Source of the DNA: Spizellomyces punctatus DAOM BR117
Lineage: Eukaryota
Length of the DNA stretch: 64,000 bases
Reading direction: 5' to 3' (one strand)
Assembly: GCA_000182565.2 (NCBI GenBank)
Contig: KQ257453.1
A program made the position numbers and the translations under genes. The notes beneath the pieces were generated by a model that saw nothing but the letters and a program-made list of their open reading frames with translations, was not told the origin of the DNA and did no database searches. Positions 32,928 to 64,000 of this stretch are shown here, piece by piece. How positions within the stretch are numbered: position 1 is the stretch's first letter; every line of letters starts with the position of its first letter.

Positions 32928-35306
32928 ATGGGACATGCCCACAAGACTCAGAACGCTTTCGATGCTTACGACCCCGACAACTGGGTCAAGCGCAACGAAC
33001 GTCTGGTCAAGCGTACAGGAATCCTACCTCTAAATGCAGAAACTCCAGTAGAAGTACTGTTGAATGAAGCCGTCACGCCTTCATCGCTTCACTACGTGAG
33101 GAATCATGGCGCTGTGCCAAAGCTGGACTGGGCAAAGCATGTCATTGAGCTAAAGGCTGGAGACAACACAATCAACATCTCGATGGATCAACTCGAGAAA
33201 GACTACGAGCCTTGCACTCTTCTTGTCACATTTGCGTGTGATGGAATTCGCAGAAAGGAACTCAATGAAATTCGACGTTCCAACGGATTTGACTGGGCTA
33301 CGGGAGCTGTTTCCACTGCCAAATGGAAAGGGGCGCTCCTGAGAGATGTTCTCCAGAAAAACTTTTCCGACTTGCAAAAGTACAAGTTTGTACTCTTTGA
33401 AGCGTGCGATGATCTTAATAATGGATCGTACGGAACAAGTATTCCGATAGATCATGCACTCGATCCATCCGCAGACGTCCTTATTGCATATGAAATGAAT
33501 GACGAACGCATTCCTCCTGATCACGGATATCCTGTTCGCACAGTTCTTCCTGGATGTGTTGGTGGTCGCATGGTAAAATGGTTGAAACAAATCATCTTGT
33601 CTGAAAAGGAGTCCCAAAACTGGCATCATTTTCACGACAACCGGGTGCTCCCGCCGACGATTACGAACAATGCCATGGCTAGCGGCATCTGGAAGAATCC
33701 CGATTATCTTCTGTATGAATTAAATGTCAATTCTGTCATTCTATTTCCTGCCCACGGTCAGAAACTTGATGTTAAGGACATTACATCCAATTTCACGGTG
33801 ACAGGATATGCATATGACGGAGGAGGAAGGAAGATTAGCAGAGTGGAGGTAACTTTGGATGGAGGTGAATCTTGGAATGAATGCAAGATTGCCTATCCGG
33901 AAGACTATGAGCCTCGACACGGACGAAAGTGGTGGGTCATGTGCAAGTGGAGCATCGAGTTTCCGGCGTGGAAAGTTGTTTCGGCTAGAGACATGGCAGT
34001 TAGAGCTTGGAATGCCTCGCTGAATACCCAGCCAGAGCACCACACGTGGAATTTACTCGGAATGATGAACAATGCTTGGTACCGGGTGCAAGTTCGTAGA
34101 GCCCAGGCAGAATGCGTGGAATTTGTACATCCTGTTCGAACCTCACCCGGTGAAGGAGTCAAGGGATGGTTGGAAAAGGCACCGGTCGCATACCAGGAAA
34201 ATGTTCCCAATCGCAACTACAGCTGGGAAGAAGTAGCAAAGCACAAGGCACGAGATGACTGTTGGATTGTTGTCAATGGCAAAGTCTACGACGTTACAGA
34301 TTTTTTGAGTCAACATCCCGCCGGTCCAGGACCTATCATGGCGCATGCGGGAACAGACGCAACCGCAGTCTTCACCGACATCCACTCTGAAGATGCACAC
34401 GTTCTGAAAGCCTCCTATGTGATTGGACACATTGGTCAAAAAGTCCTCAAAGCTCACATTTCTGAACGTGCCAAACACCCCAATCTGACACCCGACGGAC
34501 ACGCCATCGTCTTGAATCCCCACAGGTGGATACCAGTCACACTCGTCAAGAAAGAGTCGATCACTCACGATACTCGACGGTTCACGTTCGGGTTACCTTC
34601 CAAGGAGGACAGAATGTGGCTACCTTGGGGTAAGCACATCAATTTAGCCATCACACAAGAAACCCGCATGGTGGTGCGCCCCTATACGCCAGTCAAACCA
34701 ATCCTCGAGGAAGAAGACGATGGGACATTTGACCTCGTTATCAAGATCTATTTTCCCAGCGAAGACCGACCAGGAGGCGAGCTAACCCAAATGCTAGAAG
34801 GTCTGAAAAACGGAGACGAAGTGAAAATTAAAGGACCTGAAGGCGAGATCTATTACACGGGCAAAGGCTCATTCGACGTTATGGGCCATTTTATCCACTG
34901 CAAAAAAGTCAATTTTATCGTCGGTGGAACAGGGTTGACACCAGCTTTGGCGGTCATCCGAGCAGCCCTCCTGGCCGAAAAAGGCCGACACCTTCAAATT
35001 AGCCTTGTTTACGCAAATAAAACCACGGACGACATACTGTGCGGAGACGAACTTGACCATTTTTTGAAAGAGTTTAAGGATAACTTCAAACTATGGCACG
35101 TCATTAGCCGCCTGGGCGACTCGGAAAAGAAAAATTGGCCTTATGGGTCAGGACACATTGATGGAAAAACTCTTCAAGACCATTGCTTCCCACCGGCAGA
35201 CGACACGGCGTGCTTTGTTTGTGGACCACCTGCGATGGTTGCCCAAGCTGTTATGCCTAATTTAGCAGAACTTGGATTTGACGAGGATCATGTCTTTGAA
35301 TTTTAG
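32928..35306 (+). CDS. Eukaryotic NAD(P)H nitrate reductase-like enzyme (Moco + dimer + cytochrome b5 + FAD/NAD), intronless, 792 aa
   Basis: HYVRNHGAVP, ACDGIRRKELN, PPDHGYPVR, GGRMVKWL, DNRVLP, WNLLGMMNN, b5 WIVVNGKVYDVTDFLSQHPAG..DIHS, RPYTP, GGTGLTP, CGPPAM. Confidence 0.93.
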   Translation: MGHAHKTQNAFDAYDPDNWVKRNERLVKRTGILPLNAETPVEVLLNEAVTPSSLHYVRNHGAVPKLDWAKHVIELKAGDNTINISMDQLEKDYEPCTLLVTFACDGIRRKELNEIRRSNGFDWATGAVSTAKWKGALLRDVLQKNFSDLQKYKFVLFEACDDLNNGSYGTSIPIDHALDPSADVLIAYEMNDERIPPDHGYPVRTVLPGCVGGRMVKWLKQIILSEKESQNWHHFHDNRVLPPTITNNAMASGIWKNPDYLLYELNVNSVILFPAHGQKLDVKDITSNFTVTGYAYDGGGRKISRVEVTLDGGESWNECKIAYPEDYEPRHGRKWWVMCKWSIEFPAWKVVSARDMAVRAWNASLNTQPEHHTWNLLGMMNNAWYRVQVRRAQAECVEFVHPVRTSPGEGVKGWLEKAPVAYQENVPNRNYSWEEVAKHKARDDCWIVVNGKVYDVTDFLSQHPAGPGPIMAHAGTDATAVFTDIHSEDAHVLKASYVIGHIGQKVLKAHISERAKHPNLTPDGHAIVLNPHRWIPVTLVKKESITHDTRRFTFGLPSKEDRMWLPWGKHINLAITQETRMVVRPYTPVKPILEEEDDGTFDLVIKIYFPSEDRPGGELTQMLEGLKNGDEVKIKGPEGEIYYTGKGSFDVMGHFIHCKKVNFIVGGTGLTPALAVIRAALLAEKGRHLQISLVYANKTTDDILCGDELDHFLKEFKDNFKLWHVISRLGDSEKKNWPYGSGHIDGKTLQDHCFPPADDTACFVCGPPAMVAQAVMPNLAELGFDEDHVFEF

Positions 35307-45372: not shown

Positions 45373-47331
45373 TTATTCGCGTTGACGGGGTCTGTAAAGC
45401 CCAGGGTTGTCAGCAATGCAAAGTGGAGCCAGTATTGATAAGAGCAGCGTTTTTACCTAGGAGCGCAGCGAATGATGTCGTCGACCCGCAAGATGAGTTC
45501 CGCTGCTTCTGATGCAGATAGAAGTACTTGCTTCTTCAACTTAAATGACTCTGTAATACCGAGTTCACGAACATCTGCAACTATTCCTTGGGCCATATCT
45601 GAATGTGGTGGGAAAGGCGACAGCGCAATTAGAACCCTATCCCCAGCAATAATAGAAGCAATGCACATACCTAAACCGAACGTCGATTTGCCTTCATGGT
45701 GAGCTGCGCGCAATTGCGAGACAAGCTCGGCACTGTCATACCCTGCATTGTCCGCAAGGATCGTTGGCAGCTGACGTAGCGCCTTAGCAAATGATTCGCA
45801 GGCAATCGCCTTTTTGCCTGGTGTCTTTGCCGCAACTTCCTCAACAGCTTTTGCCATGAGCATCTCAGCACATCCACCTCCAAGGGTTGTACGAGGTTCC
45901 TTTACTGTCTGAGAAAGCACGCAAAGCGCGTCATGCAGAGATCGTTCTGCTTCATCCAGGAGTTGGCCAGTGGCACCACGCAGAACCACAGTACAAGCCT
46001 CGCCCGCAGCTACCCCCGAGAACTTGATCAGTCTGTCCTCCCCAATCATGATCTCCTCAATCAAATCGCAGTGTCCTAGCTTGACTAGCTCCGGGTGGTC
46101 AAAAGTCGATGCGATTTCCCCTCCTGTGACTAAAGCAAGACGTTCTACACCATCAAAGTCCGCGTGCTCGATCGCCATGACACCGGAATCAGCGAAGAGT
46201 TGCTCCGGCCAGTTGTAAATCAGCTGACGGTTGACAAAGCAATTGATGCCATGTGCCTTAATCTTCTCGACCTTCTCCTTCATCTTGTCACGCTCGGCCC
46301 GCTCCAACTCGGCCAACTTTCCAGTTGCATCCACCCTGACGCGTGCTCCAAAGATTTTGATTTTGTCGGTATCCATAGGAGTGTTTGCTACGAGAATCTT
46401 GGCGTTCTCGATCCTTTTCGGTTGGTTTACACCGATCTTCTTGTCAAGAATGAAACCTTCGTCAAGGTACGAGTCGATAAGTTTACCCCCGGCCTTTTTG
46501 ATGATTTGGATGTTGTCAAGATTTGTGCTTCCCTAGAGGTTGAACAAGACATTAACGCTTTTGGAGGTATTTGCTGCAATGTCAAGTGCAGCTACCTTTA
46601 ACCGCATCACCGCGTCGACCGCAAGAGTGGCAAAGTATTCTTTGTCTTGCGACAGCACCTTTGAACTTAGCGTTGTTTTTGCAATGTTCAGAAGATCTTG
46701 CCGGAAGGCTTCAGTATTCTTGCTATTGTCCACAGCAGACTCTTCCAGGGCCTTGTAGGCAGCGGCAGAGGCGATACGGTAGCCCTCAATGATAGTTTGA
46801 GGGTGGATGTGTTGATGAACAAGCTTCTCTCCTTCTCTGAGCAACTCTGCGGCCAGAACGCAAACAGATGTAGTTCCGTCACCAACTTCATCGTCTTGCA
46901 CTTTTGAAATGTTGACCAGAACTTTTGCTGCGGCGTTGTCTAGCGCGATTGATTTCAAGATTGTTGCACCGTCGTTTGTGACTACAATGTTGTTGGTAGT
47001 CATGGATTGCAGCGTCTTGTCCATTCCTTTTGGACCTAATGTGCTTTTCACCAGATCCCCGACAGCAATGGCACCCACAAATGACGACTATAGCAGAGAA
47101 TAAGATCTTAGCATCAACACCATGAGCGCAACCCATTGTCGATGAAATAGACTCTTGGGCTCAAAATGGACATCTACATACCAAACGCGCATTTTCTGCG
47201 CGCTCTTCGGAAGCATTCTCCTTGAAGATCTCGACGGGTGCCAAACTCTGATGGTGAAAGGATTATGGCGAGTGAGAATTAGGCGGACGCGCGTCGACGT
47301 GAAAATCAGAAACAGCATCCGTTCCTACCAT
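45373..47331 (-). CDS. CCT2: Chaperonin CCT/TRiC beta subunit
   Basis: [47 protein letters not shown]-only first exon inferred. Confidence 0.97.
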
Positions 47332-48094: not shown

Positions 48095-51000
48095 CTATAC
48101 TTTTTTTGGTGAACCTGGTGTTGCAACTTCGTACAGAACGATGGCATCGTACATATTGGCGCCAAGCTGCTTTGCCACTTGAGGGTTCTTGAAGACTATC
48201 GACATGAAGAAAAGCATTATCATTTTCTTGGACAAGCAGAATTGAAATGACGAATATGAAACTTACCACCAATTTTTAGCGAATCCACTCGGAATCGAGC
48301 GTAGAAATTCGTGTGAATCGCCCTTCCCATTCCCTTATCAAAACAATTGTATGTTAGGATAACATGGCTAGTGATGCTAGGCAGTTCCAAATGTCTTGAT
48401 ACAGACCTCTACCACGACAAAATCAACATCCCTACATTCCGTTGTCAGCTCATCGCTGAGTCTCGTAAGATCCAAGCAGGGTGATGCACTACCGGTGCCA
48501 AGGGCGAGCAATCGCTGTTCCGCCCAAGCAGATCGGATAACCGGGTCGAATCCGGCGATAACTGGGAGAATTCCTCGCAGTTCGTGCACGGTGATATCGT
48601 TAACGGAAGGACTGGTATTGGCAGCTAAAACAACAGTTGTCCCCTTGCCCAGCAAATAGCGAGCAAAAGGTATAATGCCCAAAATGATGTCCGCTCCACT
48701 ATTATCGACAAAAATCACGGCTTTGCGGTAAGGGGATCCCTCGACCAACCGCTGTTTCAGTTGAGCCAATTGGCTGAACTGTTGTGGATGCCCGACTGTC
48801 TCCTTGGCAGTATCAAAGTCGAGCTCTCCCTTCTTCAACATCTCTTGAACTGATGTCGATCCCCAGTCATACATGTTCCCCGCCAAGACATTATCAATCA
48901 GATTATCGAGCTTTTTCCCTTCATCCTCCATGGCGTCTAATCGCTTTAAAAGTTTAGGGAGACCTTCCAGGGCAGCTGCATTTTCTTGCTTCTTCACATT
49001 TTCAAAAATGTCCGTAAAGCCCATCTCGCGTAGACATTGTTCACGAAGATCCAGAAGGCTGCGTATTGTGAGGGCACCGTACATGTTTGGTTCTCTCCGC
49101 AGCGCCTGTAGGTGTTCCCTGTACATGGCTTCAAAACTTGAAGCACGTGTCCGAGTATCTGCAAAATTGCCTCGCCATTGTAAAGCCATATCGGCCAAGT
49201 CGCCAAGGTTTCTGTCCAACAAGTCTATCCAATATTGTTGCAGTTTTGGGTCTTTCAAATCGGTTGTATCGGGCTTGTATCTGGATACATCCGCCAGGAG
49301 AGGGAATACCGTAAGATGTGTCGGAAACTCATCTAGTGCACCAACTGCTCCCAATGAAGATCCAGAGATTTTATCGACTCGAGTAAAGTTTTCAGTGAAC
49401 GATTGAATTCTACCGCGTTGAGGTACATGGCGTAAGAAAGCTCCCATAGCTCCCAGGTAGCCTTCATGTCGCAGAAACATTGCCATAATCTTTCCCTTTG
49501 ACCAGAAGTTGATTGCGTAGCTAAGGCGACAGGTTATTGACACCTGGTCGAGAGAATGTCGAACAAAAAGGATGTCGCATATCCTCACCTGAGGGTGTTC
49601 ATGGTTATCGGATGTCCTATGAGCGCCGTTGAAAGAGGTTCAGTGATTTATCCCAGAACGTGGGCGATGTACCATCATGTACCTCTGATGAAGAAGCCAC
49701 TAAAGTATATCCTGGAACGTAACGAAGATTAGCACAGACCTGGATGGTGCCGTCATCATATCGGCGATACCTTTGAATACCATGCGCTTGTGCATTCAAA
49801 TATGCAATCTGTCCAATATTGTTGCTGCAAAACGGTTTCTAATCCATTCCAGTTTCCAAACTGCAAAAACACCACACTATACCTCACGAGATACTGTACA
49901 AAATATCAGAATAATAAACATACAGGACATTCATGGCGTACAACGTACCAACAAAGACCTAGAAATATCCTCCTGCTTGAACTTTGATTTCCTCTCTTCC
50001 GGTGGAGTCTTGAACACCTTCCCAAATGACGATGCAATTGCGGATCCCTTCAATCCGATTTTGGGATAGTCGCTACGATACATCCAATAAGTCCGAAACG
50101 ATCGAACTGTGGTTACATGCCCGTCCATTGCCGACTAAAACGTACCCACCATAGATATCGCCAACCTAGATCCCTCACGTTAATGTCAGCACGGAATGAC
50201 GCCGATGTCACGCAGCCATACCAGCATATCCACATTCTTATTGTCACCGAGCTTTGATAATTCTGCGGCAAAGCATTACACCAATAGTGCAAGTCGCGTT
50301 ACGTTCACATGCATACCTAACATCTCATCATAATCCTTGGCTTCGGTTAATAATGAGAGTAAACCCCACAGTGTCCCGCCTCCCAATGACGTGCCTAGAG
50401 CCACGACCCGTCAACCAGAAAAAACTTTGTGGTAGTAATAACGTTAGATGTATACCGCTTATACGCTCATATGTTTCATCGCTAGTGACTTTAAGTATGC
50501 TAACGCCGGAGCCGATATTGACAAGCTGGAGCCCTGCTGGTTACTAATAATGTCTAATAATAAATCAGTACACAGCTCACTCACTAGATAGGGGAAAAGT
50601 TCGGAAGGAGTAGACTCAAACTGCATGGACTCTGCTCGACGCTCATCATATGTGAACACCTCATACGGAATTTGCCGGACCAAGAAGTTCAACCCTATTC
50701 GCTCCACCATGAGTTGCACACGTTGAATCATTCAATTGGAGAACTCTAAGGACCTGTAATCAGACTAAAAGCAACCCAATATGACTCAATTCATTCCATC
50801 CAATCAAGAAGTCATCAAGAGAAGAGAACATACCATTCCATTTCGTCTTCACGTTGCATTGTTACACCCAGCTTCTCTTTGAATAATTCTAACAATCTTG
50901 TGAGCACGAGTTATCTTGTCAGAAGGGCTGGACTTTGGTTTTACCGTAATATTTATGTGCACCTCCGCCAGTAGCTAACATTTATGACTTTTAGGTTTCG

Positions 51001-52880: not shown

Positions 52881-55800
52881 TTAAGCGGTCACACCAGTGG
52901 CCTGGGTTCCCGCAGTTGGTAGTGCCGCCCCCGCTTGCGCACCACTGCCGCCTGTGGAGGAACTTGCGGTAACTCCAGGTCCTGACCCTGCCGGCGCAGC
53001 CCCAGTCTGATTCTTTGACTGCATCACATTGATCAAGATCTGAGCCTGTAGTTCCATTGCGGTTTGGTCCATCACGCCATATCCAGGCCCAAAAGCGCCA
53101 TCTGGCATTGGTGTACTTGGTGAAGCGCTCGACGAAACGAGTTTTCGGAGCTTATAAACGTTGACGGCTCCATTATCATCACCTGTTAGTACAGCAGGCG
53201 ACTTGGAAGCAAATATTATGGACGTCAGCCGTCGGTCGAGTACCGTGTGGAGAATTGCTGGGTCAAGCCTGCAGAGAAAATGCACTCAGGACTGATAAAA
53301 TGAGGGAGCCGCGGAAATCAGCGTGCAACTTACACGGATAATTGCAAATCCCATATTTCCATTCTTCCATCTGTCGATACACATCCGAACACGGTGGAAG
53401 AAGCAGGAGACCATGCCACATCTGTTATTGTGTCCTGTGCAGAGGAGTAAGATAGGTTGATCAATATGCCATTTCACGACAAGCCTCCCTTATCCTTACT
53501 TTGCCGCTTTGAAACTTAAACACCGGCTCTTCCATGTCCTGGTTCCATAACCGGACGGTCCAATCGCACGAGCATGATAAAAACGCTCCAGAGAGAAATG
53601 GCGACCACCGAATTCGATTTACTGGACCTGTATGCCCAAAGTACGTTGCAAGATATTGCTCATTGTATGAGCAAGAGCACCGATGAATGTGCCCGTCGTC
53701 CGTTCCGACCATGTAACTACATTATGAAAGCTGACTCAATAAGAGGAATACAAGAAAGCGCATGACCAGCACGCACATGTTATTATCTTTCGGATTGAAA
53801 TCAAAGCATAAACCACCCGACTGTCGGGCGATGAAAGAACCGGGTTTGTTTCCAGACCCAGCAGAGCCGGCAGCGGTACCTGCTGCGGCACCGGCCTTAA
53901 TTTCTTGCTGCTTCGTTACTCTCTTCAAGCTCATCAAATCTGACATACAGGATTAACATGCATGTTTACCGTTAGCGCAGTCAGGTTCCACCATACCTGT
54001 ATATTCTAAACCTTTCCTGATTAACCATTGAGTTACACGCCCATCAGTTGATACTGATACTAGCGTCTCGCCGCGTGCATGTTCGTCTCCACGCTCCCTT
54101 TCGACCCATCGAAGCTCCCAAATTGGATCGCGATGTTTTCCGGCGAGGTCGCTGGACAGAAAATCAGAGAAGTGTGGGTCCGTACTGCAAAAAGCAGATA
54201 CGGACAGTACCTGTTGTCCATTACTGGCTCATCTTCTTTCCTTCGCACGTCGTATATTGCTATTCGTCCGTCAACATAACCGCATGCAAGGAGATTGGGA
54301 GTGGACCGTGAAAAGTCAATCGCCGTCACTGGAGATTTTGATCGATAGATCCTTTCAGGCCACTATTACAAAAGGTGAGGAAATCGCTTGCCGAATCGAC
54401 CAGCAAGGGTAGTGTGCGAACCTCTGGATTTTTTACCGACCAGCACAATACCAGCCCTGCATGTGGATTTGGACCTGGTTTTTGCTCGCCGTAAGCAACC
54501 GCCAATATGTCCTTTTGAAGCATTTGCTCGTCAATCTAGGTGCAATTAATTGTCACCTGAATCACACCTACTTCATTTTCTTTGTTCCACACCAGAAATG
54601 ATACCGCCCGGCCGCGGGTAAGTTCACATCGGTATGACCACAGAAAGTCCACGGTGGGAATGCTGTCAACGTCTCGTTTGTCGTCTCGGGCTACCAAATG
54701 TTGTGATTTAAGTTCTTATCAGAGTCACTCGAAAGAATGTTGTCAGTACACACCTTTGTCACCTAGTGTGTATGATTTCAAGAAGGGTCTTTTGTTAGAG
54801 GACTGATCCTGTCAAATCCAATGGAGAGAACGTCCACATTACGCCCTACGTACCCGCAGCTGGACCACCTGGACTCGCACCCGGCAAACCTTCCGGAGTC
54901 TGGTCAAGTGCTTCCTGTCGAGCGGCAATTTCCCTTTGCTTTGCTTCTTCCGCGTCCATGACATTTCGGTATTGAAGGAGCTTCTTCTCAAAGTTATTGG
55001 CCACTACTGCGCGTTCCAAAACCAATAGGGAATTTTGCAAGTTCTTTTGATTTAACTGAATTAGAAGGAAGTATCTGTTAGAGGTATACCGTCAGGCAAT
55101 AAACGGTCGCTCCCTACGTACCCCAGCAAGGGTGACTTCAGGACCAGCTACAATGTCGCTCGCTACATCGACCATGTCCCCACCTCTATGCATTCCGGGT
55201 CCAATGCTCAAGCTATTACGCTTAGCGCCCGGTCCAACGCTCGCATACAGATCTGACATGGTTTCCCCTTCGGGTAGGAATACTGACCGTGACATCGCCC
55301 CTGCTGCATCAGACATAACCATAGAGCTACTGGCAAGCTTATTGCCTTGCAGCATAGAAGAATCGCCCACCGATCCCTGCAGTCCGATGGATGCAGGAGC
55401 CGATTGTTCACCAAGGTTGGACAAGGCCTCATTATCACCGTCCTTGCTTTTGTATTGGATGGACAGCAAATGAATTTTACAGTTATCGATGCAATTGGGT
55501 GGATTTGAATGTCCCTACCTGATACCTTCACTGGTCTTTTCTGTACCCTCCAAGTGATAAGCGTCGTAGATGCTCCATTGGGTTACCATACACTCGACGT
55601 TGACTCCCTTTGGTCCAGGTGCTTGAATTTCCTTTGTTTTCAGCGGATCATTGAAAGTCTGCATCCCGCGATCGACAAAGTTTTCATTGGCCGCTCGACT
55701 TTCAAGAACCTTTGGAGAAGTTGCATAAGACGCCAAATTGGTGCATCTCTTTGGCTTTTGTTAAACAAACCTCTTTGTATTTGGCGTTCGCTGCTCTCAC

Positions 55801-56689
55801 GGCTGTGGCTTCGTCTCCTGACTCATTGGACACCGTAACTGCAGTTATATCCAAGAGTGGGATGGTTTCTGTTTCGGTGAGGTTGATGTGCACAAGTTTG
55901 TTTAGCTCCGCTTCCCCAAGAGTCCGGGAAGTCGCGGCAGCTGCGACGGACACCCGGTCTTCTTTGAGTACTGTCAATAGATGTGGTTCAGACCTGATAC
56001 TCGAGGAATATGCAGGAGCTCAAACGGACGCTTTACATTCTTCTCTGTCTTCCGCAGATTCTGCGCTTCCCACTGAGCTTGCCTCATCCTCATCACCGCT
56101 CTCAGCCCCAGACATCCGGCTGGAACTCAAAAAGCTCATTCCCATCATTGCAGATCGCCCAAACACCGACTGATTCCATGATCCCACAGTCATAGATTCT
56201 AGGTTGTTTAACACATCGGCAACCGTTTCCTATTTCCATGAAGTGGTCGAGCGCTGAGCACCTCCGCATTGTGAACCAATTGGATCAGAAAGATCTTACC
56301 CGTGCAACGCTCGCCATACTACTAAGTTCTGTTGCGCTCGCACCTCCATGACCTTTTCGAACATGCCCGACTTGTTGCGGGGCTAGTAAGCTCAGCGGAG
56401 TAACATCATTCCCCTCCTCATCCAAGACCTGCACTGCCTTTTCTTGGACGGGTTTCCCATTTCGATCCAGCGTACTTTGTGATGCCCGAATTCGCTGCTG
56501 TGACCCCCGACCATATACTCCAGAAGAAATTGAAGATAAAGCATTTCGTGACCGTACTGATGGAGAGGCGGGTTCAAGTCGTGCGTGTGAAGCCGCTGAG
56601 GCATTGAGTACAGCGGTGGAGCGTCTCCCAGCTGGCTTCTGCAACCGGGCTTTAGACGCTGCAAGGTTTCCAGTTTTGGGTGGTTCCAT
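52881..56689 (-). CDS. DNAI4: Axonemal inner-arm dynein I1/f intermediate chain (WDR78/IC138)
   Basis: VLDEEGNDVTPLSL, INLTETETIPLLD, GMQTFN, DILAVAYG, WSVKNPE, VGTDDGHIHRCSCSYNEQYL, WD40 C-terminus. Confidence 0.88.
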
Positions 56690-56866
56690 CTAATTGCTTT
56701 CAGAACTTTGTACTATTCGGCTGGAAATATTTGCATTGGCAGCATCAACAAATAGGTTGGGATGGACTCTTAGCGTCGGAGTTTTGGGGGTGCTGCGCAA
56801 AGGACGCGTCCGTCAGCGTGTCGCTTGTCGCTGCTCTGCGTTTTTCAACCAGTTTCACGCAAAAGG

Positions 56867-58163
56867 ATGACCTCTGAGCCCAAGGACTATGATAACAGCT
56901 GGACGTATCGAGTCCCTCAAATACACAAAGAGTTGGGGGAGCCTGTGATAACAATTCGACATCTCTCAAAGAGTGGGTACAAATGCCATATGACTCGAAC
57001 CCATTGCTGACTCTGTTCCTTCCTGTAGCATACAATATCCCTGGCACAGATGAATCTGTTAAAGCTCTTCATGACATCCACCTCGCACCGGATTCAGAGT
57101 TCTATCCTATTCGCAGAGGTGAATTTGTGATTCTACGAGGACCAAGTGGTGGTGGGAAAACGACTCTACTCAACATCTTGGGCACGATTGATACGGCAAC
57201 CAGTGGTACTGTGGGTAAGTGAAGACAGCCAAGTCCTGCCTGTTTTGCATCATCAATTAATGTGTCTGGATACGGTAGAGCTTCTCGGGGAGGAAATATC
57301 AGAAATATCGTCCGATGCATACTTATCCGGCCTTCGCCTGCGGCGTATTGGTTTTGTGTTTCAGACATTCAACCTGTTGGGAACCATGTCTGCATTCGAG
57401 AACGTGGAGCTACCCATGACAATTCAAGGGAAGCTAGGGCATCGCCAACGGCAAGAACGTGCGCTGATGTTGCTAGAAAGTAAGTGCCGAACACTCATTT
57501 GCTCTTTGGATTGGTCATTGAGGTTCCACCAGCTGTCGGTTTACAAGATCGAATAGCACATCTCCCTTCCGAGCTTTCTGGTGGTGAACAGCAGCGAGTG
57601 TACGTTTTACCAAGAAAGTGCCAAGTATGTAAATATTTACATAAAATTCGTACAGTACAATAGCAAGAGCGCTGTCAAATGATCCAGACATCCTGCTTCT
57701 CGATGAACCCACCGGGGATCTCGACACCGCCAACACCATAGATATTATGAATCTACTTCTCAGAATCAATCGGGAAAAGAAGACAACATGCGTCATGGTA
57801 CGAAGGTTCGGTATGTTGTTCAAGAGACTGCCAACATAATATTGATTTGGCTCTGTCGTTGTTCACCTCCCATCACTGTAGGTAACGCACAATCCGGATG
57901 TCGAGTGTTACGCAGATCGTCTTCTCTATTTGGAGGATGGGCGGTTTGTAAAGCAAGCAGTGAACAAGGTTTGATTGAAATATCTGCGATTCATAGCATG
58001 AGAGCGCTGACGCATTTGCCTCCTTCTTTAGGTACAAACGCCATTGATTCTGGAAGAATATCAAGGTACAGTAGCATGATGAAGCTATCAGCTCGCAGGT
58101 TGCCCGATCTCGTAGGCTCACGACGTTACATCCGTAGAATACCTACGAAAAAAGGACGCGTGA
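56867..58163 (+). CDS. Stand-alone MacB/LolD/FtsE-family ABC ATPase (8 exons)
   Basis: Walker [11 protein letters not shown]-loop [17 protein letters not shown], signature LSGGEQQRV, Walker B/D-loop [12 protein letters not shown]-loop VTHN; no TM segment. Confidence 0.92.
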
Positions 58164-58316
58164 CATCCTTTTCACCAAATTTACAATCTTCATCGATAGC
58201 TCACATTCGAATTCTAGTATTCTATCTCTTGTTGAAAATGTACAGTACCGTGGGATACCTCCGGAACAACAGTCCCGGAAGCCAATATATATTATTATTC
58301 TTTCGCATCTTCGTTG

Positions 58317-61300
58317 CTATTCCATAACCTTATTATCATACACCACACGCCCCTGCGAGCAAAAACGTGAGTCACACAGGATAAGATCAGCTGCAGAGGC
58401 ACGCTACTAGCTGAAACTCACCTCAGCGTCTCTGACTTTCACCCGCCCATCGGACCATCGCATTTCCTCCGTACCATCCGGGTTTGAAATTTTCACCAAA
58501 CCATCTCCATAGTATTTTGTCCTAACTCCATTTAGGTACACCTCCTGCGAGAAACACAATGTATAAGAGGCCTATGGCTATCAAGGCATGTGGTCATCCT
58601 GCAATGTACCTTTATTCCGTTTGGATATTCCCACGTTTTCTTTCCATTCTCTTCAACACGTTGTATTCTCCCATCAGGAAAGAGGCTCTCCTCCTGTTCA
58701 TCAAATCATGCGACCGGTTCCATATTAGCTCTTCGATATATGCCCAGCTGCCTGTTGGCCATACTTACCTCGCCGTTGGTGAAGATGTATTTCACCGTTT
58801 TATCCGCGAAGACGATTTCGTTGGTCCCGTCAGGGTAATGCTTTTCCACCTGCCCATTAGAGAACTCGTACACCTGCAAGCCATCTTTATATGTCGTATG
58901 TAAGGTCCGTTGCTCGGTATACCAGTATACGATGCGACCGTCCGCGAACACCTGGTTAAGAAAATGACCGGAAACCGGACGTTGGTGAGCTATCAATTTC
59001 AAGCTGCCGAAGGGCTCATCTCAGGTGTGGGAATGGCCATTTCTTACCGTTTTTGAATCGCCGTTTGTGAAATGTATTACTATCAACTCGTCATCAGGAT
59101 GTACCTCCTTTAATGTACCATTGGAGTATCGGACGAGCTTTATTCCGTTCGCATATATACGCTCGAGTTTCCCATCGGACGTTGTCCGTTGCTTTATAAA
59201 GGTACACAACAGAATCAAAGAATGTTACATGCCGATTGTCATCCGGAAGGGTCTCATTACCTCAACACACCCTGAGAAGCTCAACCTTTTCTCAAGCGCG
59301 TCCAGCTCTGCCACGGCAGCCTTTGACTTAGCACTGTTCGAAATGGATCTTCGAGAGACCCGCTTTTTGGTGACTGCAGAGATGCTCTGCGTAGTAGAAC
59401 TGGGCGAAGGAGCAGAACTTCCGATTCGTTCCTCCTCACGGCTTGTCCATCCATTTGTGGGGGTTGATTCCGCACCCTTCACATGCTTAATGATAACAGG
59501 CTGGTGCTTTGCATAAACGGGCGGTCTGTGAACGGTTTCCTGCAAAGATCAAACTTAAGATAATGACTATCCCACATGAACAATGGTGGCACCTTACAAG
59601 ACAGGTTTGATTTCGCTCAACATATGCTGCACGTTCCTGTTCAAGAACCTTCACCTCCTCCTGCAGTTCCATATTTCTTCGAGTTAGATCTTCAACGCGT
59701 CGCTTCAAGCGGTCCTGAGCAAGAGTCATCCTGGACTCTTTCTCCTTAAAGCTAGCCTGCAGGGTCTCAATCTGCTTTCGAAGCAATTCGACATCTTGTC
59801 TCTCTCTAAGCGCATTTGTATGCATCAATATGTGACACTGTCGATTGATGGGCTAACAACCGAATCCACCTTTTAGTCGGCAAAATCTCAGCTGCCTTTC
59901 GCTGCTTTTCCCAAATTTTACGTTCTCTTTTAAGGTCTCGCAACGCGTCTTCTCGCATTTGATTGATCTTTTCGATTTCTTCCTGCTTGAACTTCTCGAA
60001 AGACTTCTGTTTACGTACCGAATACAACTAATGGCATGAGTACCGCCATTCATTTGAAGGCAAAAGGACACCAGAAAAACCGACCTTCTCGCCGTCCAGG
60101 ATCTTCATAGCTTGCTCGTTCTCGCGCGATCCTCGTCGAGTGAGATCGTCTGCTTTTTTGAACTTTTCAAGTTCCTGCTGCAAGTTCTGTACAACGGAAG
60201 CTCAGAATGGTGACTTCACATAAAAGATCTACGCTTCTTCACTGAACCTGGAGCTTCTGTTTCAATTCGTCTTCTATCGTCGACGTGGACTTTTTTGGTA
60301 GTCCGTCACTTGCTTCCTCCCCAAGTTTCCCTGGATCCTCTATTGCTATGAATTAGTCTGCTCTACAGCAGGTCTATCGCATACTGGCACTTATACTCGG
60401 CTGGCAGTTGCTCACCTGCAGGCTTGTTCAATTTTGGCCTCAGCCCCGGAAACAGGCTGTATAAAAGCCTTGAGGGACCAATCCCGGCGCTGGAGCTGTC
60501 TCCTTCACTAGCTTGTGCTTCTATATCTGAAGCATCTGCGATTGGTATGTCCACCCCATTTCCCGGATGCGCGCTATCCGGAACATTATCTAGACGGCCT
60601 ACATATTATTCGAACTTGCGTCAGTGCAAGGAAAGAAGGTCCATAACTACATCAACCGACCTGGCTGCTCCCCTTCCGAGAAGACTTTAGAGAGGAACCT
60701 CTTTGAGCTCGCCATAGGGCTGGTTACTTCTCTCCAGTTCTTCGGTTCATCTTCTTCCGTAATCTATTGCGTCGACGAATCAGCACTAACAGTCTCCAGG
60801 AAATACAGAGATACATTGCATACCAATGGTTTATCTTGCGAAGAGTTATTACGTCCTCGAAATCTACATCCATGCTGGACAATGAGAATGGAACGACGCG
60901 GATATTGTACATTTTAGAGGAGACAGTACCTGTGCATTGGATGTAACCCAGGGTCGGCAGTAAGATTGCCATTGGTTGAAGTCATCCTTGGGCGATTTGT
61001 TGTGGAAAGATTTTCGGCTGATGCTTTCGGGGAACAGTGACCACGGCCGTTCACCCGCCTTCCGACACTATCTGCTTCCTTTTTTGCACTATTATCCATC
61101 TCATTCGCGGGCCCTGTGGAAGCTCCTTCTTCCTCCTCATCGGATGTTGATCCCCCAAGAATCAGTCGTTCCAGTTCTTCGAACTCATCTCGCTGATCAG
61201 CAGCCGACCGTTGAATTTGATGCCATCTTTTTCTATTCGCCAGGCGGGCTGGAGTAAGAACTTGCGTTTCTAGTATTACATCGACATCGTCATTCTCTAT

Positions 61301-61703: not shown

Positions 61704-61724
61704 GCGCGAAAATGGTAAGCGCGT
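61704..61724. promoter_or_regulatory. E2F/SBF-type site GCGCGAAAA plus ACGCG core in the SAS-4/POL12 divergent promoter
   Basis: GCGCGAAA is both an E2F site (TTTCGCGC) and an SCB (CGCGAAA); AGCGCGT at 61718-61724. Confidence 0.55.
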
Positions 61725-61832
61725 CCACCAAAGGATGGTCCGAAAGTTGACTCGAACCGGCTTGCTTCGGACATGACCAAGCGGAACTTGGGGTTTGCGA
61801 CAAACGTATTTGGACCATCTCGTCAAGACAAG

Positions 61833-64000
61833 ATGCTTACAGCCAACGTGGAGCCAATTCGGGAAGAGCTATTGGCTGCCTTTGGTCCGCAAATCTCATC
61901 GCGTCCTGAAGTTCTAGACCGGCTCGTCACATATGCAAAGATCTTTGATGTGGAGGCCGAGGATTTACATGCCAAGTGGGAGGCATACACTCTCACTCCC
62001 GCAGCGCAGAAGTCTGACGATGACCTGACGCTGCCGACGCTTGCTCACCTGGACGAACTACAAAGTGTGTTGTTGCGAAAGCAAGAGGCCGAAAAACATC
62101 AGGCCCTCTTAGGAACATCTGATTCGCTGCTAAACGTGAAGGAGGTCAATCCGTTTGTGGAAGGCACAATGTTCACGAGTGACTCGTTACAGAGCCTCTT
62201 GGACGATAAAGGCGCAGATATTCTTGGAAGCTTTCGAACGCCAGGCAAAGCTAGGCGAAAGATTGTGCCTAAGGATGCAACAGCGTTGAGTGGGAGTGGG
62301 GCCGGGCCACATCCAGCCAAGAAATATCCTTCTCAGCCAGTAGGGGCTACCATGCCAAAGACACCAGCATCAAGCGGACGCTTTGATAAGACGCTCAACG
62401 TTGGAAATTCTCCTGCCTCAGCGCGTTTCTATGGAGCATCTCCTAGCACCCCTAGTGGCAGAGATAGTATACCATTGTCCCCACGGGGACCATCTCCGAA
62501 CGCCATAAAGTTTGCGGATAGGCTCAACAAAGCAAAGAAGGAAGAAACTTTAAATGATCATGTACCGATGGTTGCGTCGTCACCCGAAGATCCAGTGAGA
62601 TGCGAAATTTCATTAGTTCCAGGCCAGCAAACCAGCGGTTATCGATATATGTACGAGAAGTTGATGGAAAAGGGCGACTACTTGGATGAGCGTATTGATC
62701 AATTTGCAGAGCTTATTGTAGAAGCGATTCGTGAAACTCTACCAGAGGAAACCCGAAACGACTTCCAACTGCAGCATCCTGGTGTGCCAAACCAGGATCC
62801 GATTATAACCGTTGGCCGAGTCTGTTGCGATTCGTTAGTGGAAAATGCGAAATTGAATGAGCAGTCTATTCTGCTAGAATCATCGCGTGCCATGGGGGCT
62901 GGGTGCCGGGTAAAGCTAAACTTGAACGAGATCCCGGGTTTCACGATGTTTCCTGGCCAAATTATTGGTGCGGAGGGAATGAATTCAAGTGGAAGACTAC
63001 TCAACGTGTCCAAACTATACCAGCCACCACATCCTCCTAAAGCAACCTCAACACCGTCACAAATCGTTAATTTCTACTCAGAGGAGGGCACCGTTTCTAA
63101 GCGCCCTGTTAACGTCTTCATCGCGAATGGTCCATATACCCTGGACGACAGTCTGAATTATGAGCCATTTGAAGAGTTTGTGACTCAAATTTCGAAAGAA
63201 GCTCCTGATGTCGTCATACTACAAGGACCTTTTGTCGATGCGTCGCATCCTATGATTGCGCAAGGCGATCTTGACGTTGACATTGATGAGTTATTTCGAG
63301 TGCAGATTTCCTCCCGACTTGAACGTATAATACAGGCAAGGAAGCATCGTTCGACCAAAGTAGTTTTGATCCCTTCCACGCGAGATGCCTGTTCAGAATG
63401 GGTATCCTTCCCTCAACCGTCTCTTGCAGCAGGATTGACTGACCAGGAGTCACGCGAACGTCGTAGAGTGTTGGGCATTCCAGGCGAAGTGATGCTCTTC
63501 CCTAATCCAGTGCAATTTACGATCAACGAAACAGTGTTTGCTTGCTGTAGCACAGACATCCTCTGGCAGATGTGCGCTGAGGAGGTTGCCCGGGTACCGA
63601 AACAGCAGCAAGGGTCGAACGATGCGAATGGGATCTCCAACCACAAGATAACACGCCTGTTCCAACACATGCTGAGCCAAGGAAGCTTCTATCCACTATT
63701 CCCGCCAGCTCTGGACGATGCTTGTTTGGACCTCTCGCGATCAAAAGCGTTGGAACTGCAAGCAACTCCAGACGTCTTAATTGCTGGAAGCAGATTACAG
63801 TATACCGCACGGAAAGTGAACGGTTGCGTATGCATAAATCCAGGATTGCTTGTGAAGGGGCGAGGAGGTGGTACATTTGCCAAGATGTGTATCTGGCCTT
63901 TAGATTTGGATGGAATTAAGACGTTGGTTAAAGAGAAGACTACCGACTCCATGGATGTCGACGGGGAGGATGAAGAAGACATAGCTATCGCCCACGCTGT
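61833..64000 (+). CDS. POL12: DNA polymerase alpha-primase B subunit (runs off the window end; no intron seen)
   Basis: Long open frame MLTANVEPIREEL..., S/T-P cluster, YRYMYEKL, VGRVCCD, FPGQIIGAEG, GPFVDASHP, QGSFYPLFP, CINPG. Confidence 0.92.
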   Translation, partial: MLTANVEPIREELLAAFGPQISSRPEVLDRLVTYAKIFDVEAEDLHAKWEAYTLTPAAQKSDDDLTLPTLAHLDELQSVLLRKQEAEKHQALLGTSDSLLNVKEVNPFVEGTMFTSDSLQSLLDDKGADILGSFRTPGKARRKIVPKDATALSGSGAGPHPAKKYPSQPVGATMPKTPASSGRFDKTLNVGNSPASARFYGASPSTPSGRDSIPLSPRGPSPNAIKFADRLNKAKKEETLNDHVPMVASSPEDPVRCEISLVPGQQTSGYRYMYEKLMEKGDYLDERIDQFAELIVEAIRETLPEETRNDFQLQHPGVPNQDPIITVGRVCCDSLVENAKLNEQSILLESSRAMGAGCRVKLNLNEIPGFTMFPGQIIGAEGMNSSGRLLNVSKLYQPPHPPKATSTPSQIVNFYSEEGTVSKRPVNVFIANGPYTLDDSLNYEPFEEFVTQISKEAPDVVILQGPFVDASHPMIAQGDLDVDIDELFRVQISSRLERIIQARKHRSTKVVLIPSTRDACSEWVSFPQPSLAAGLTDQESRERRRVLGIPGEVMLFPNPVQFTINETVFACCSTDILWQMCAEEVARVPKQQQGSNDANGISNHKITRLFQHMLSQGSFYPLFPPALDDACLDLSRSKALELQATPDVLIAGSRLQYTARKVNGCVCINPGLLVKGRGGGTFAKMCIWPLDLDGIKTLVKEKTTDSMDVDGEDEEDIAIAHA

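What the first reader, a model, noticed from the sequence alone, without database searches (positions are those of the whole stretch)
56690..58163. Bacterial-type MacB/LolD ABC ATPase as an intron-rich fungal gene, sharing a 177-bp promoter with axonemal dynein
Seen: a short solo nucleotide-binding protein with the LolD/MacB/FtsE hallmarks ([34 protein letters not shown]), no TM domain and 7 canonical spliceosomal introns, so it is a long-resident eukaryotic gene and not bacterial contamination. It is head-to-head with DNAI4 and tail-to-tail with SAS-4. Established: this ABC class (type VII, mechanotransmission/lipoprotein extraction) is bacterial; standard fungal ABCA-G families do not include it, though Dictyostelium AbcH proteins are similar solo ATPases. 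Inference: zoosporic fungi retain a poorly characterised split eukaryotic type VII ABC system whose FtsX/MacB-type permease is encoded elsewhere, perhaps acting in the flagellated stage. This is my best candidate for an undescribed system.
Basis: partly seen in the sequence, partly recalled or inferred. Interest (0 to 1): 0.75.

Follow-up and report, generated by a model that had tools for sequence, protein, structure and literature searches.

The report
Conserved eukaryotic MacB-class ABC ATPase gene
This is a real, expressed and already annotated chytrid gene for a stand-alone ABC ATPase of the MacB/LolD/FtsE kind; it belongs to an old, catalogued but functionally unstudied family found across many eukaryotes, and its membrane partner in this fungus and any link to the flagellum remain unproven.

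Summary
Window 56867-58163 (+) is SPPG_02987 of Spizellomyces punctatus: 8 exons, 7 GT-AG introns and a 282-aa product with no membrane helix. RNA reads confirm that the last two introns are spliced. By sequence and by fold the protein is closest to type VII ABC ATPases (MacB, LolD, YbbA, BceA, FtsE, MJ0796). It reaches none of the NCBIfam family cut-offs. It is not a recent bacterial import. It sits in a well-supported eukaryote-only clade ("AbcH.2"; 58-98% identity from chytrids to Naegleria, Guillardia and Eutreptiella). That clade is sister to a longer eukaryotic paralogue clade ("AbcH.1"). Trees place both next to Asgard archaeal ATPases whose genes adjoin 963-aa ten-helix double-FtsX permeases, but an AU test does not reject a bacterial affinity. 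The family is already catalogued (Dictyostelium, kinetoplastid and Tetrahymena ABCH; TCDB 3.A.1.207 "Eukaryotic ABC3"), though I found no functional study. The permease could not be sought in this genome, which is not held. The head-to-head DNAI4 and tail-to-tail SAS-4 neighbours are confirmed, but nothing here shows co-regulation or a ciliary role. Verdict: a new member of a known, poorly studied kind, of moderate interest.

The parts
56867..58163 (+). Coding region of SPPG_02987 (AbcH.2-type solo ABC ATPase, 282 aa). It has 8 exons: 56867-56972, 57029-57214, 57279-57479, 57533-57599, 57656-57797, 57882-57968, 58032-58065 and 58138-58163 (stop codon at 58161-58163).
   Evidence: A single GT..AG intron set reproduces P0001 exactly. 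P0001 is 100% identical to exon 3. Pfam finds ABC_tran at residues 63-206, E 1.8e-29.
57029..57214 (+). Exon 2. It encodes the N-terminal beta-sheet and Walker A (GPSGGGKTT, residue 73).
57279..57479 (+). Exon 3. It encodes the Q-loop and helical subdomain ([11 protein letters not shown]...ENVELP), which is the most conserved block of the family.
   Evidence: As a 66-aa query it retrieved 2575 relatives with E<=0.001. Every listed row that carries an organism name is a eukaryote. The block is invariant across the 22 sequences of alignment A1.
57533..57797 (+). Exons 4 and 5, split by intron 4 (57600-57655). They encode the ABC signature LSGGEQQRV and Walker B with the catalytic glutamate ([11 protein letters not shown]).
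57882..58163 (+). Exons 6 to 8. They encode the H-loop (VTHNPD) and the eukaryote-specific conserved C-terminal helix ([13 protein letters not shown]). Introns 6 (57969-58031) and 7 (58066-58137) are confirmed by RNA reads.
   Evidence: RNA run X7 shows a joint 58063->58136 (GT..AG) in 3 reads. Loose ends at 58030, 58065 and 58136 read the end of exon 6, the start of exon 8 and the end of exon 7. The model has a helix at residues 270-281 with block pLDDT 86-92.
58164..58355 (+). 3' untranslated region. Plus-orientation RNA reads run to about 58290-58355 and meet minus-orientation reads of the convergent neighbour.
   Evidence: Depth table. In bin 58164-58227 the plus depth is 22. In bin 58228-58291 the plus depth is 11 and the minus depth 17.
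56690..56866 (.). 177-bp spacer between the divergent start codons of the DNAI4-like gene and SPPG_02987. It is a presumed bidirectional promoter region.
   Evidence: Sequence and length. No promoter function was tested.
54063..56689 (-). 5' part of the upstream divergent gene, an axonemal dynein intermediate chain of the DNAI4/IC138 type. The first coding exon is 56288-56689 and a WD-repeat exon is 54063-54362. The gene continues further left, to at least 52884.
   Evidence: Exon 54063-54362 matches human DNAI4 8j07_k2 (E 4.3e-15) and IC138 8glv_AF (E 3.8e-8). Exon 52884-53285 matches the C-terminal part of DNAI4 weakly (E 2.6e-4).
58709..59020 (-). Exon of the convergent downstream gene. It carries the Tcp10_C / G-box repeats of SAS-4/CPAP.
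   Evidence: Pfam PF07202, E 1.3e-17, 2 stretches.

Best explanation
SPPG_02987 is an expressed nuclear gene of Spizellomyces punctatus. It encodes a cytosolic, catalytically complete, stand-alone ABC ATPase of the eukaryote-wide AbcH.2 clade.

Shown:
- the gene model, and splicing of the last two introns;
- the type VII (MacB/LolD/FtsE-like) sequence and fold;
- the eukaryote-only clade and its old split from the longer AbcH.1 paralogues.

Inferred: like its closest prokaryotic relatives, the protein most likely works as an ATP-driven dimer. The dimer would dock on the cytosolic coupling helices of a separately encoded FtsX-fold permease, most plausibly a ten-helix, internally duplicated one of the YbbP/BceB/'E-ABC3' type. 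ATP-dependent closure of the dimer would be passed on to the permease's outward-facing domains (mechanotransmission). This would extract, expel or remodel a lipid-linked or surface substrate rather than pump a solute through a channel. The substrate, the membrane and the partner in this fungus are unknown.
For: Gene and expression:
- A unique 8-exon model equals P0001.
- RNA reads from a run with the same species label span intron 7 and end at the exon 6, 7 and 8 borders.

Class:
- The best NCBIfam models are LolD 199 bits, DevA, MacB, YbbA, FtsE and DarD.
- The best solved chains are 5xu1, MJ0796, MacB, YbbA, LolD, PsdA, BceA, YtrE and FtsE.
- The AlphaFold model (pLDDT 86.3) matches the same chains by Foldseek, with TM (target) 0.88-0.94 and 31-42% identity.
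- Walker A, Q-loop, signature, Walker B-Glu and H-loop are all intact.

Old eukaryotic family:
- The 22 aligned orthologues are 58-98% identical to P0001.
- The H2 clade has support 98-99, the H1 clade 93-98, and H1+H2 together 98, in three trees of 125, 69 and 104 rows.

Partner type in relatives:
- 21 of 80 closest prokaryotic loci have a MacB_PCD+FtsX permease gene directly beside the ATPase gene. The other adjacent membrane ORFs were unrelated proteins, apart from one ABC-2 permease (L005) lying beside a different, weakly related ATPase gene.
- In the four Asgard loci that the 104-row tree puts next to the eukaryotes, the ATPase gene is followed directly by a 962-965-aa membrane protein. 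The two I scanned had two FtsX and two MacB_PCD stretches; the other two carry both families in precomputed annotation.

FtsX-type permeases in eukaryotes:
- Leishmania braziliensis has an annotated 'FtsX-like protein' gene (PMC11841412, passages).
- TCDB 3.A.1.207.4 is listed as a 10-TMS entry (supplement of PMC7997004).
- An ESM-Atlas cluster of about 1100-aa FtsX proteins is 67% Eukaryota, commonest Euglenozoa (a lead only).
Against: - No permease was found for this species. The genome is not held.
- None of the 87 window ORFs scanned carries FtsX.
- The exhaustive search with an Asgard permease gave 150 listed hits, of which I looked up 11 (10, P0376). The only organism name returned was an Asgard archaeon.
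- The word-index search with the Borrarchaeum-type permease gave 120 listed hits, and no row carries a eukaryote name.
- None of the 120 listed longer relatives that carry a eukaryote name has a fused FtsX domain.
- 43 of the 80 prokaryotic loci have no membrane-protein ORF within 1.5 kb, so adjacency gives no information for most of them.
- The very high conservation (about 65% identity between chytrid and Naegleria) and the eukaryote-specific N- and C-terminal segments would also fit a soluble, non-transport role.
- The Leishmania FtsX-like knockout grew normally, so such a system need not be essential.
Confidence: 0.55

Rival explanations
1. It is a soluble ABC ATPase that works without any permease, as ABCE, ABCF and Caf16 do. 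It would use ATP-driven dimerisation to regulate a cytosolic process.
For: - It has no TM segment.
- No eukaryote-named fused form was seen.
- Conservation across eukaryotic supergroups is unusually high, and the extra N- and C-terminal segments are absent from prokaryotic relatives.
- For another bacterial-type fungal solo ABC protein (YDR061W), the fungal inventory notes that no membrane component was ever found (PMC2848647, passages).
Against: - All the closest solved and modelled relatives are motors of FtsX-fold permeases.
- FtsX-type permeases are annotated or catalogued in other eukaryotes.
- Earlier unchecked notes of this scan report a ten-helix FtsX permease in Naegleria gruberi, a species that also has an AbcH.2 orthologue.
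Confidence: 0.25
2. It has a zoospore- or cilium-linked function. The gene would be co-regulated with DNAI4 through the shared 177-bp spacer and would act in the flagellated, wall-less stage. This is compatible with the permease model.
For: - It is head-to-head with DNAI4 and tail-to-tail with SAS-4.
- Among the organism-named fungal rows, all are zoosporic lineages (Chytridiomycota, Blastocladiomycota, Caulochytrium), and no Dikarya or Mucoromycota row appears.
- Most other named hosts have flagellated stages (Naegleria, Percolomonas, Guillardia, Eutreptiella, Planoprotostelium).
Against: - Adjacency in one genome is the only direct evidence.
- Most protists are flagellated, so the profile is weak.
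- A Stygamoeba row appears among the hits.
- The nearest Atlas cluster is 100% Eukaryota, commonest Evosea.
- Sources name the orthologues after AbcH2 of Dictyostelium, which from general knowledge has no cilia.
- AbcH.1 occurs in Fonticula and Blastocystis.
- The trypanosome table lists short ABCH1/2 for T. cruzi but only ABCH3 for T. brucei (assigning these to clades by size is my inference).
- The RNA run gave no reads over the DNAI4 5' end, but the library is 3'-biased, so this says nothing.
Confidence: 0.12
3. It is a recent horizontal transfer from bacteria, or bacterial contamination of the assembly.
For: The best family models and solved structures are prokaryotic.
Against: - It has seven spliceosomal introns, two of them confirmed in RNA.
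- Its GC content equals that of the window (0.463 against 0.473).
- It is embedded between eukaryotic genes.
- The best prokaryotic identity is only 40-53%, against 58-98% to eukaryotes of several supergroups.
- The eukaryote clade has support 98.
Confidence: 0.01

Closest known systems
Eukaryotic solo-NBD 'ABCH' proteins: Dictyostelium AbcH.1-AbcH.4, Tetrahymena ABCH1/2 and kinetoplastid ABCH1-3
   Same: They have a single nucleotide-binding domain and no membrane domain, and are classed apart from ABCA-G. Sources name the chytrid orthologues 'ABC transporter H member 2' and the longer paralogues 'AbcH.1'. Tetrahymena and Dictyostelium ABCH are described as single-NBD genes (PMC2984421, passages).
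   Different: No sequence of the Dictyostelium, Tetrahymena or kinetoplastid proteins was in hand, so orthology rests on source names and lengths. The original Dictyostelium paper (Anjard & Loomis 2002) is not held. The arthropod and fish 'ABCH' half-transporters that dominate the literature are, from general knowledge, a different, ABCG-like family.
Type VII ABC ATPases with solved structures: Spr0694 (5xu1), MJ0796 (1f3o/1l2t/3tif), MacB NBD (5lj9, 5lil), YbbA (9ge6-8), LolD (7arh and others), BceA (7tcg) and FtsE (8idb)
   Same: The fold and motifs match: phmmer E 2e-51 to 1e-37, and Foldseek TM (target) 0.88-0.94, rmsd 1.6-2.4 A, 31-42% identity. All of them drive FtsX-fold permeases by mechanotransmission (from general knowledge; the MacB review PMC5985334 was seen in abstract and one passage only).
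   Different: The protein scores below every NCBIfam cut-off: LolD 199 against 308, FtsE 185 against 265, YbbA 189 against 336, MacB 192 against 966. It has eukaryote-specific N-terminal (residues 1-25) and C-terminal (263-282) segments. Its gene is intron-rich and not in an operon. Its partner is unknown.
TCDB family 3.A.1.207, 'Eukaryotic ABC3 (E-ABC3)'
   Same: It is the catalogued home of eukaryotic MacB/FtsX-type ABC systems. Entry 3.A.1.207.4 (UniProt C4LT38) is listed with 10 TMS, and Asgard homologues are reported in Heimdall and MK-D1 (PMC7997004, passages and supplement).
   Different: The TCDB entries seen describe permeases. Whether AbcH.2 is their ATPase is not stated in what I read. 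No chytrid member was seen. That C4LT38 is an Entamoeba protein is my recollection and comes from no call.
Asgard (Borrarchaeum/Promethearchaeota) ATPase plus 963-aa double-FtsX permease cassettes
   Same: They are the closest sister group of the eukaryotic AbcH clade in the 104-row ML tree (SH-aLRT 90). They have stand-alone ATPases of about 240 aa, 49-52% identical to P0001 by blastp. Their permease has two FtsX and two MacB_PCD modules, the architecture expected for a eukaryotic partner.
   Different: They are operon-encoded and lack the eukaryotic terminal extensions. The sister relationship is not significant: the tree that holds eukaryotes with bacteria is not rejected (p-AU 0.51).

Membership tests
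Type VII ABC superfamily (MacB/LolCDE/FtsEX/BceAB/YbbAP), ATPase subunit | The nucleotide-binding domain is closest in sequence and fold to the LolD/MacB/FtsE group rather than to importer or type IV/V exporter NBDs. | tested here: met
   The top 8 NCBIfam hits are all type VII ATPases. The top PDB chains are too, apart from Rv1281c (8j5q/8j5s). The top Foldseek hits are all type VII ATPases down to rank 24.
Type VII ABC superfamily (MacB/LolCDE/FtsEX/BceAB/YbbAP), ATPase subunit | A complete catalytic motif set: Walker A, Q-loop, LSGGQ signature, Walker B with catalytic Glu, and H-loop. | tested here: met
   GPSGGGKTT at 73, Q126, LSGGEQQRV at 179, LLLDE(204) and TH(237).
Type VII ABC superfamily (MacB/LolCDE/FtsEX/BceAB/YbbAP), ATPase subunit | A partner permease with the FtsX fold (4-TM module plus extracytoplasmic domain) in the same organism. 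| not testable with these tools
   No genome is held for the window. No FtsX was found among 87 window ORFs. Permease-seeded searches listed no eukaryote-named row.
LolD / FtsE / MacB / YbbA equivalogs (NCBIfam) | The whole-protein score reaches the curated cut-off. | tested here: not met
   LolD 199.3 against 307.75, FtsE 184.7 against 264.85, YbbA 189 against 336, MacB 191.7 against 966, DevA 193.5 against 295.8. It is not an orthologue of any of these.
Eukaryotic AbcH.2-type solo ABC ATPases | A single NBD, no membrane domain, about 270-330 aa. | tested here: met
   282 aa. Pfam finds only ABC_tran and AAA_21. The maximum 19-residue hydropathy is 1.0.
Eukaryotic AbcH.2-type solo ABC ATPases | It falls inside the eukaryote-only clade of proteins that sources name ABC transporter H member 2, separate from AbcH.1. 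| tested here: met
   The H2 clade has support 99 (FastTree, 125 rows), 98 (IQ-TREE, 69 rows) and 99 (IQ-TREE, 104 rows).
Eukaryotic AbcH.2-type solo ABC ATPases | Orthology with Dictyostelium discoideum AbcH2 itself. | not tested
   No Dictyostelium sequence was obtained. This is inferred from source names only.
Cilium-associated gene set | Co-expression with axonemal genes, or a presence/absence profile that follows cilia. | tested here: inconclusive
   The RNA run is 3'-biased and of unknown stage. Named hosts are mostly flagellated, but Stygamoeba appears, the nearest Atlas cluster is commonest in Evosea, and sources name the orthologues after Dictyostelium AbcH2.

The most novel reading that the evidence does not exclude
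Zoosporic fungi and many protists retain a type VII 'mechanotransmission' ABC machine that dates from the last eukaryotic common ancestor. Its motors are the AbcH.2 and AbcH.1 ATPases, working on ten-helix double-FtsX permeases. It was inherited vertically from the Asgard archaeal host, where Borrarchaeum-type ATPase-permease cassettes are its closest relatives. It was lost in animals, in plants and, together with the zoospore, in terrestrial fungi. In chytrids it would act at the membrane of the wall-less, flagellated cell.
Probability: 0.2. Interest if true: 0.7.

Novelty: new member of a known kind. Interest (0 to 1): 0.38.

Why it matters
Type VII ABC systems (MacB, LolCDE, FtsEX, BceAB, YbbAP) are treated as prokaryotic envelope machines. 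The main review of the family that I consulted uses the word 'eukaryotes' only once, about another transporter type.

A strongly conserved eukaryotic branch with two ancient ATPase paralogues means that many protists and zoosporic fungi probably run such a machine on a membrane without a bacterial envelope. What it moves there is unknown.

S. punctatus has been genetically transformed (title of PMC7213984, search listing only). This gene is therefore a practical entry point: tag it, find the partner, and knock it out.

The possible Asgard affinity would add one more membrane system to the archaeal inheritance of eukaryotes, but my data do not settle it.

Tried and rejected
1. Whole-genome search for FtsX (PF02687) in the window's own genome: no genome is held.
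2. RNA holders: no RNA holder was listed by the index. I laid the one raw RNA run with the same species label instead. Only about 6% of that run was read.
3. Fused forms: among 120 listed relatives of 495-2000 aa, three carry FtsX (P0200, P0219, P0237). None of the three has a eukaryote name. P0200 looks like a prokaryotic MacB-type fusion to me, which is a judgement and not a test.
4. Walking from prokaryotic permeases to a eukaryotic one, in two attempts:
   - An exhaustive HMMER search with the L030 Asgard permease gave 13289 hits, of which 150 were listed. I looked up 11 (10, P0376). One name was an Asgard archaeon, another was a generic JGI permease label, and the rest had no name.
   - A word-index search with the Borrarchaeum-type permease gave 167 hits, of which 120 were listed. 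None carries a eukaryote name.
   - P0410 (1118 aa, an unnamed metagenome protein) has the ten-helix layout and 28-32% identity in the FtsX blocks. Its origin is unknown, so I do not use it as evidence.
5. Asgard origin: three trees favour it, but the AU test does not reject eukaryotes grouping with bacteria (p 0.51; the constrained tree is 0.87 log units better). I therefore do not claim it.
6. H1/H2 obligate heterodimer: both paralogues keep canonical motifs and the closest Asgard cassettes have one ATPase gene, so nothing supports it. The L030 locus with two ATPase genes is not the closest relative once more Asgard genomes are sampled. I ran no complex prediction.
7. Literature: Anjard & Loomis 2002 is not held. 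The fungal ABC inventory that included S. punctatus names only the Caf16 and YDR061W solo groups in the passages I saw. No paper contains SPPG_02986, SPPG_02987 or SPPG_02988. No paper combines FtsX with chytrid names. Searches found no functional study of a eukaryotic AbcH-type ATPase or FtsX-type permease apart from the incidental Leishmania knockout. Supplements of bioRxiv preprints are closed and could hold relevant tables.
8. RFX/X-box or other motif analysis of the 177-bp spacer was considered and not run.
Full report
**What is in the sequence.**
- The window comes from Spizellomyces punctatus DAOM BR117. Exon 3 of the reported gene is 100% identical to a database protein that NCBI calls 'uncharacterized protein SPPG_02987' (P0001, 282 aa).
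- I enumerated GT donors and AG acceptors around the seven suspected introns. Exactly one combination reproduces P0001 letter for letter. It has 8 exons from the ATG at 56867 to the stop at 58161-58163, and 7 GT..AG introns of 53-84 nt.
- GC content of the gene (0.463) equals that of the window (0.473).
- I laid a raw RNA-seq run carrying the same species label on 56500-58400. About 6% of the run was read and 165 reads were laid, with 3'-biased coverage.
  - Three reads show a GT..AG joint 58063->58136.
  - Soft-clipped ends at 58030, 58065 and 58136 read the end of exon 6, the start of exon 8 and the end of exon 7.
  - The gene is therefore transcribed, and introns 6 and 7 are removed as modelled. 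The five upstream introns had too little coverage to judge.
- Three DNA-like contig sets from another sample are identical to the window and keep the introns.

**What the protein is.**
- Pfam sees only ABC_tran (E 1.8e-29) and the overlapping AAA_21.
- The best NCBIfam models are LolD (199 bits), DevA, MacB, YbbA, FtsE and DarD. All of these are ATPases of FtsX-fold, type VII systems. Every score is below the curated cut-off, so the protein is an orthologue of none of them.
- Against solved structures, the best chains are S. pneumoniae Spr0694 (5xu1, E 2e-51), archaeal MJ0796, MacB, YbbA, LolD, PsdA, BceA, YtrE and FtsE. No eukaryotic chain is among the 50 matches.
- An AlphaFold model built on 22 orthologues (pLDDT 86.3, pTM 0.84) matches the same chains by Foldseek, with TM (target) 0.88-0.94.
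- There is no hydrophobic segment: the maximum 19-residue hydropathy is 1.0.

**It belongs to an old eukaryotic family, not a bacterial import.**
- In the exon-3 search, every listed row that carries an organism name is a eukaryote. The names include:
  - Chytridiomycota and Blastocladiomycota: Geranomyces, Fimicolochytrium, Phlyctochytrium, Rhizophlyctis, Blastocladiella, Catenaria, Paraphysoderma, Sorochytrium;
  - Caulochytrium;
  - the heteroloboseans Naegleria, Willaertia and Percolomonas;
  - Guillardia, Eutreptiella, Planoprotostelium and Stygamoeba.
- Several chytrid rows are named 'ABC transporter H member 2' by their sources.
- Twenty-two of these proteins align at 58-98% identity to P0001. 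Long stretches are invariant, and conserved N- and C-terminal segments are present that prokaryotic relatives lack.
- A search among longer proteins found a second eukaryotic group of 500-900 aa, about 48% identical, named 'AbcH.1' in chytrids. It also occurs in Fonticula, Monocercomonoides, Paratrimastix, Streblomastix, Blastocystis, Percolomonas and Moneuplotes. Its extensions are low-complexity and not membrane-spanning.
- The closest prokaryotic genes, in one genome for each of 185,579 species, are only 40-49% identical by tblastn and up to 51% by blastp.
- In three trees the H2 group (support 98-99), the H1 group (93-98) and their union (98) are each monophyletic. The trees were FastTree with 125 rows, and IQ-TREE LG+C20 quick with 69 and 104 rows.
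- Percolomonas and three chytrid genera have both paralogues. The duplication therefore predates the divergence of those lineages, which is an inference.

**Where the family comes from.**
- In the first two trees the sister of the eukaryotes was a pair of ATPases from one Promethearchaeota (Asgard) locus (support 86 and 84).
- I then scanned 151 genomes of that phylum. 142 have a match at E<=1e-40, with identities up to 53%.
- With 36 of these Asgard ATPases added, the eukaryotes became sister to four of them (support 90), inside a group made only of Asgard and eukaryotic sequences (support 84).
- However, an AU test of the alternative split (eukaryotes plus bacteria against all archaea and outgroups) gave p 0.51, and the constrained tree was 0.87 log units better.
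- The Asgard affinity is therefore a lead and not a result.

**What the relatives work with.**
- I examined the 80 best prokaryotic loci:
  - 21 have a MacB_PCD+FtsX permease gene directly beside the ATPase gene on the same strand;
  - 16 have some other membrane protein there: MatE, a 7TM-HD receptor, an ABC-2 permease that belongs to a different neighbouring ATPase, or long unannotated proteins that sometimes carry TPR in Bacteroidota;
  - 43 have no membrane ORF within 1.5 kb.
- In the four Asgard loci nearest the eukaryotes, the gene order is conserved: an 8-10-helix protein, an ArsR/PadR-type regulator, the ATPase, then a 962-965-aa membrane protein for which the hydropathy scan marked 10-13 segments. 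The two I scanned with Pfam carry two FtsX and two MacB_PCD stretches.
- This is the internally duplicated layout of YbbP and BceB, and of TCDB's 'Eukaryotic ABC3' entry 3.A.1.207.4, which is listed with 10 TMS (supplement of PMC7997004).

**Is there a permease in this fungus?** I could not find out.
- No genome is held for the window.
- None of the 87 window ORFs that I scanned with Pfam has an FtsX domain.
- Two searches seeded with Asgard permeases listed no row with a eukaryote name.
- That FtsX-type permeases exist in other eukaryotes is indicated by three things:
  - an annotated 'FtsX-like protein' gene in Leishmania braziliensis, whose knockout grew normally (PMC11841412, passages);
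  - the TCDB family;
  - an ESM-Atlas cluster of about 1100-aa FtsX proteins that is 67% Eukaryota, commonest Euglenozoa (a lead only).
- Earlier, unchecked notes of this scan describe a ten-helix FtsX-type permease gene and an AbcH.2-type ATPase gene in Naegleria gruberi, with partner and function unknown. They agree with my reading but are not independent evidence.

**Neighbours and the ciliary idea.**
- The divergent upstream gene is an axonemal dynein intermediate chain of the DNAI4/IC138 type.
- Its first coding exon starts at 56689, directly after an in-frame stop, which leaves 177 bp between the two ATGs.
- The convergent downstream gene carries the SAS-4/CPAP G-box. RNA reads of opposite orientation meet at about 58230-58350.
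Beyond adjacency in this one genome, nothing ties the ATPase to cilia.
  - Among fungi the named hits are all zoosporic, and most named protist hosts are flagellated.
  - On the other side, a Stygamoeba row appears, the nearest Atlas cluster is commonest in Evosea, and sources name the orthologues after Dictyostelium AbcH2.
  - AbcH.1 occurs in Fonticula and Blastocystis.
  - The trypanosome table lists the short ABCH1/2 only for T. cruzi and not for T. brucei. Mapping these to the H2 clade is my inference from their lengths.
- Co-expression could not be tested.

**How it most likely works.**
- Shown: it is a complete, soluble type VII-like ATPase.
- Inferred from its relatives:
  - two copies sandwich two ATP molecules;
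  - the dimer sits on the cytosolic coupling helices of an FtsX-fold permease, most plausibly a single ten-helix polypeptide that provides both halves;
  - closing and opening of the dimer drives movements of the permease's outward-facing domains, which act on a substrate in or on the outer leaflet (mechanotransmission).
- The conserved C-terminal helix (residues 270-281, confidently modelled) is a candidate docking element specific to eukaryotes, which is speculation.
- I put about 0.55 on this model, 0.25 on a permease-independent soluble role, and about 0.12 on a specifically zoospore- or cilium-linked role, which could coexist with either.

**Novelty.**
- The gene is annotated and the family is catalogued: ABCH in protist inventories, and TCDB 3.A.1.207.
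- In the library searched I found no functional study of the ATPase or of its presumed permease in any eukaryote.
- The fungal ABC inventory that covered S. punctatus does not mention this group in the passages I read.
- I therefore rate it a new member of a known but poorly studied kind, with moderate interest.

Noticed in passing
L030:2725-8501 (Promethearchaeota contig): An Asgard operon with a 1387-aa ten-helix permease (two FtsX stretches, MacB_PCD and a large domain of about 680 aa between helices 7 and 8), followed by two different ATPase genes of 266 and 254 aa that are 47% identical to each other. This suggests a heterodimeric motor on a single-chain double permease.
   Followed up: partly
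L120, L121, L122, L123 (Asgard genomes G032, G042, G021, G059): A conserved five-gene cassette: an unannotated 8-10-helix protein of about 303 aa, an ArsR/PadR-like regulator of about 205-214 aa, the ATPase, a 962-965-aa double-FtsX permease, and an unannotated protein of about 230 aa. In L121 a second ATPase plus 984-aa permease pair lies about 7 kb upstream.
   Followed up: partly
P0376 (unnamed NCBI protein, 2786 aa): A giant protein with six FtsX domains, a MacB_PCD and a C-terminal adenylate/guanylate cyclase catalytic domain. Its origin and meaning are unknown.
   Followed up: no
P0239 (ENA protein, 920 aa): An AbcH-like ATPase (54% identity over 64% of the query) whose precomputed Pfam list includes Hom_end and its associated Hint domain. 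This suggests an intein inserted in the ABC domain.
   Followed up: no
L010, L011, L024, L035, L043, L047, L059, L061, L069 (Bacteroidota loci): The ATPase gene is preceded by a gene for a protein of about 880-1050 aa. In the two I looked at, 11-12 helices lie in the first 400 residues. These proteins have no Pfam family, or only weak TPR hits. This is a recurrent, unannotated neighbour that is not an FtsX permease.
   Followed up: no
window 58164-58355: Plus-orientation reads (the 3' end of the ATPase mRNA) and minus-orientation reads (presumably the 3' end of the SAS-4 mRNA) overlap in the same 64-nt bins. The two convergent transcripts appear to abut or overlap.
   Followed up: no
window 32919-35303 (+), 45456-47087 (-), 48380-50731 (-), 61719-63998 (+): Other genes seen in the Pfam scan: a nitrate-reductase-type Mo-co/cyt b5/FAD/NAD oxidoreductase in one 795-aa open frame, a TCP-1 chaperonin subunit, a Fumble (pantothenate kinase) plus ARMT1-like phosphatase gene, and DNA polymerase alpha subunit B. 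Gamma-tubulin complex, LMBR1, Tim17, SCO1, UDG and ARS2 genes lie elsewhere in the window.
   Followed up: no
P0220, P0223 (Blastocystis): AbcH.1-type ATPases are annotated as fused to a DIE2/ALG10 glucosyltransferase domain with several helices. This could be a gene-model merger or a real fusion.
   Followed up: no
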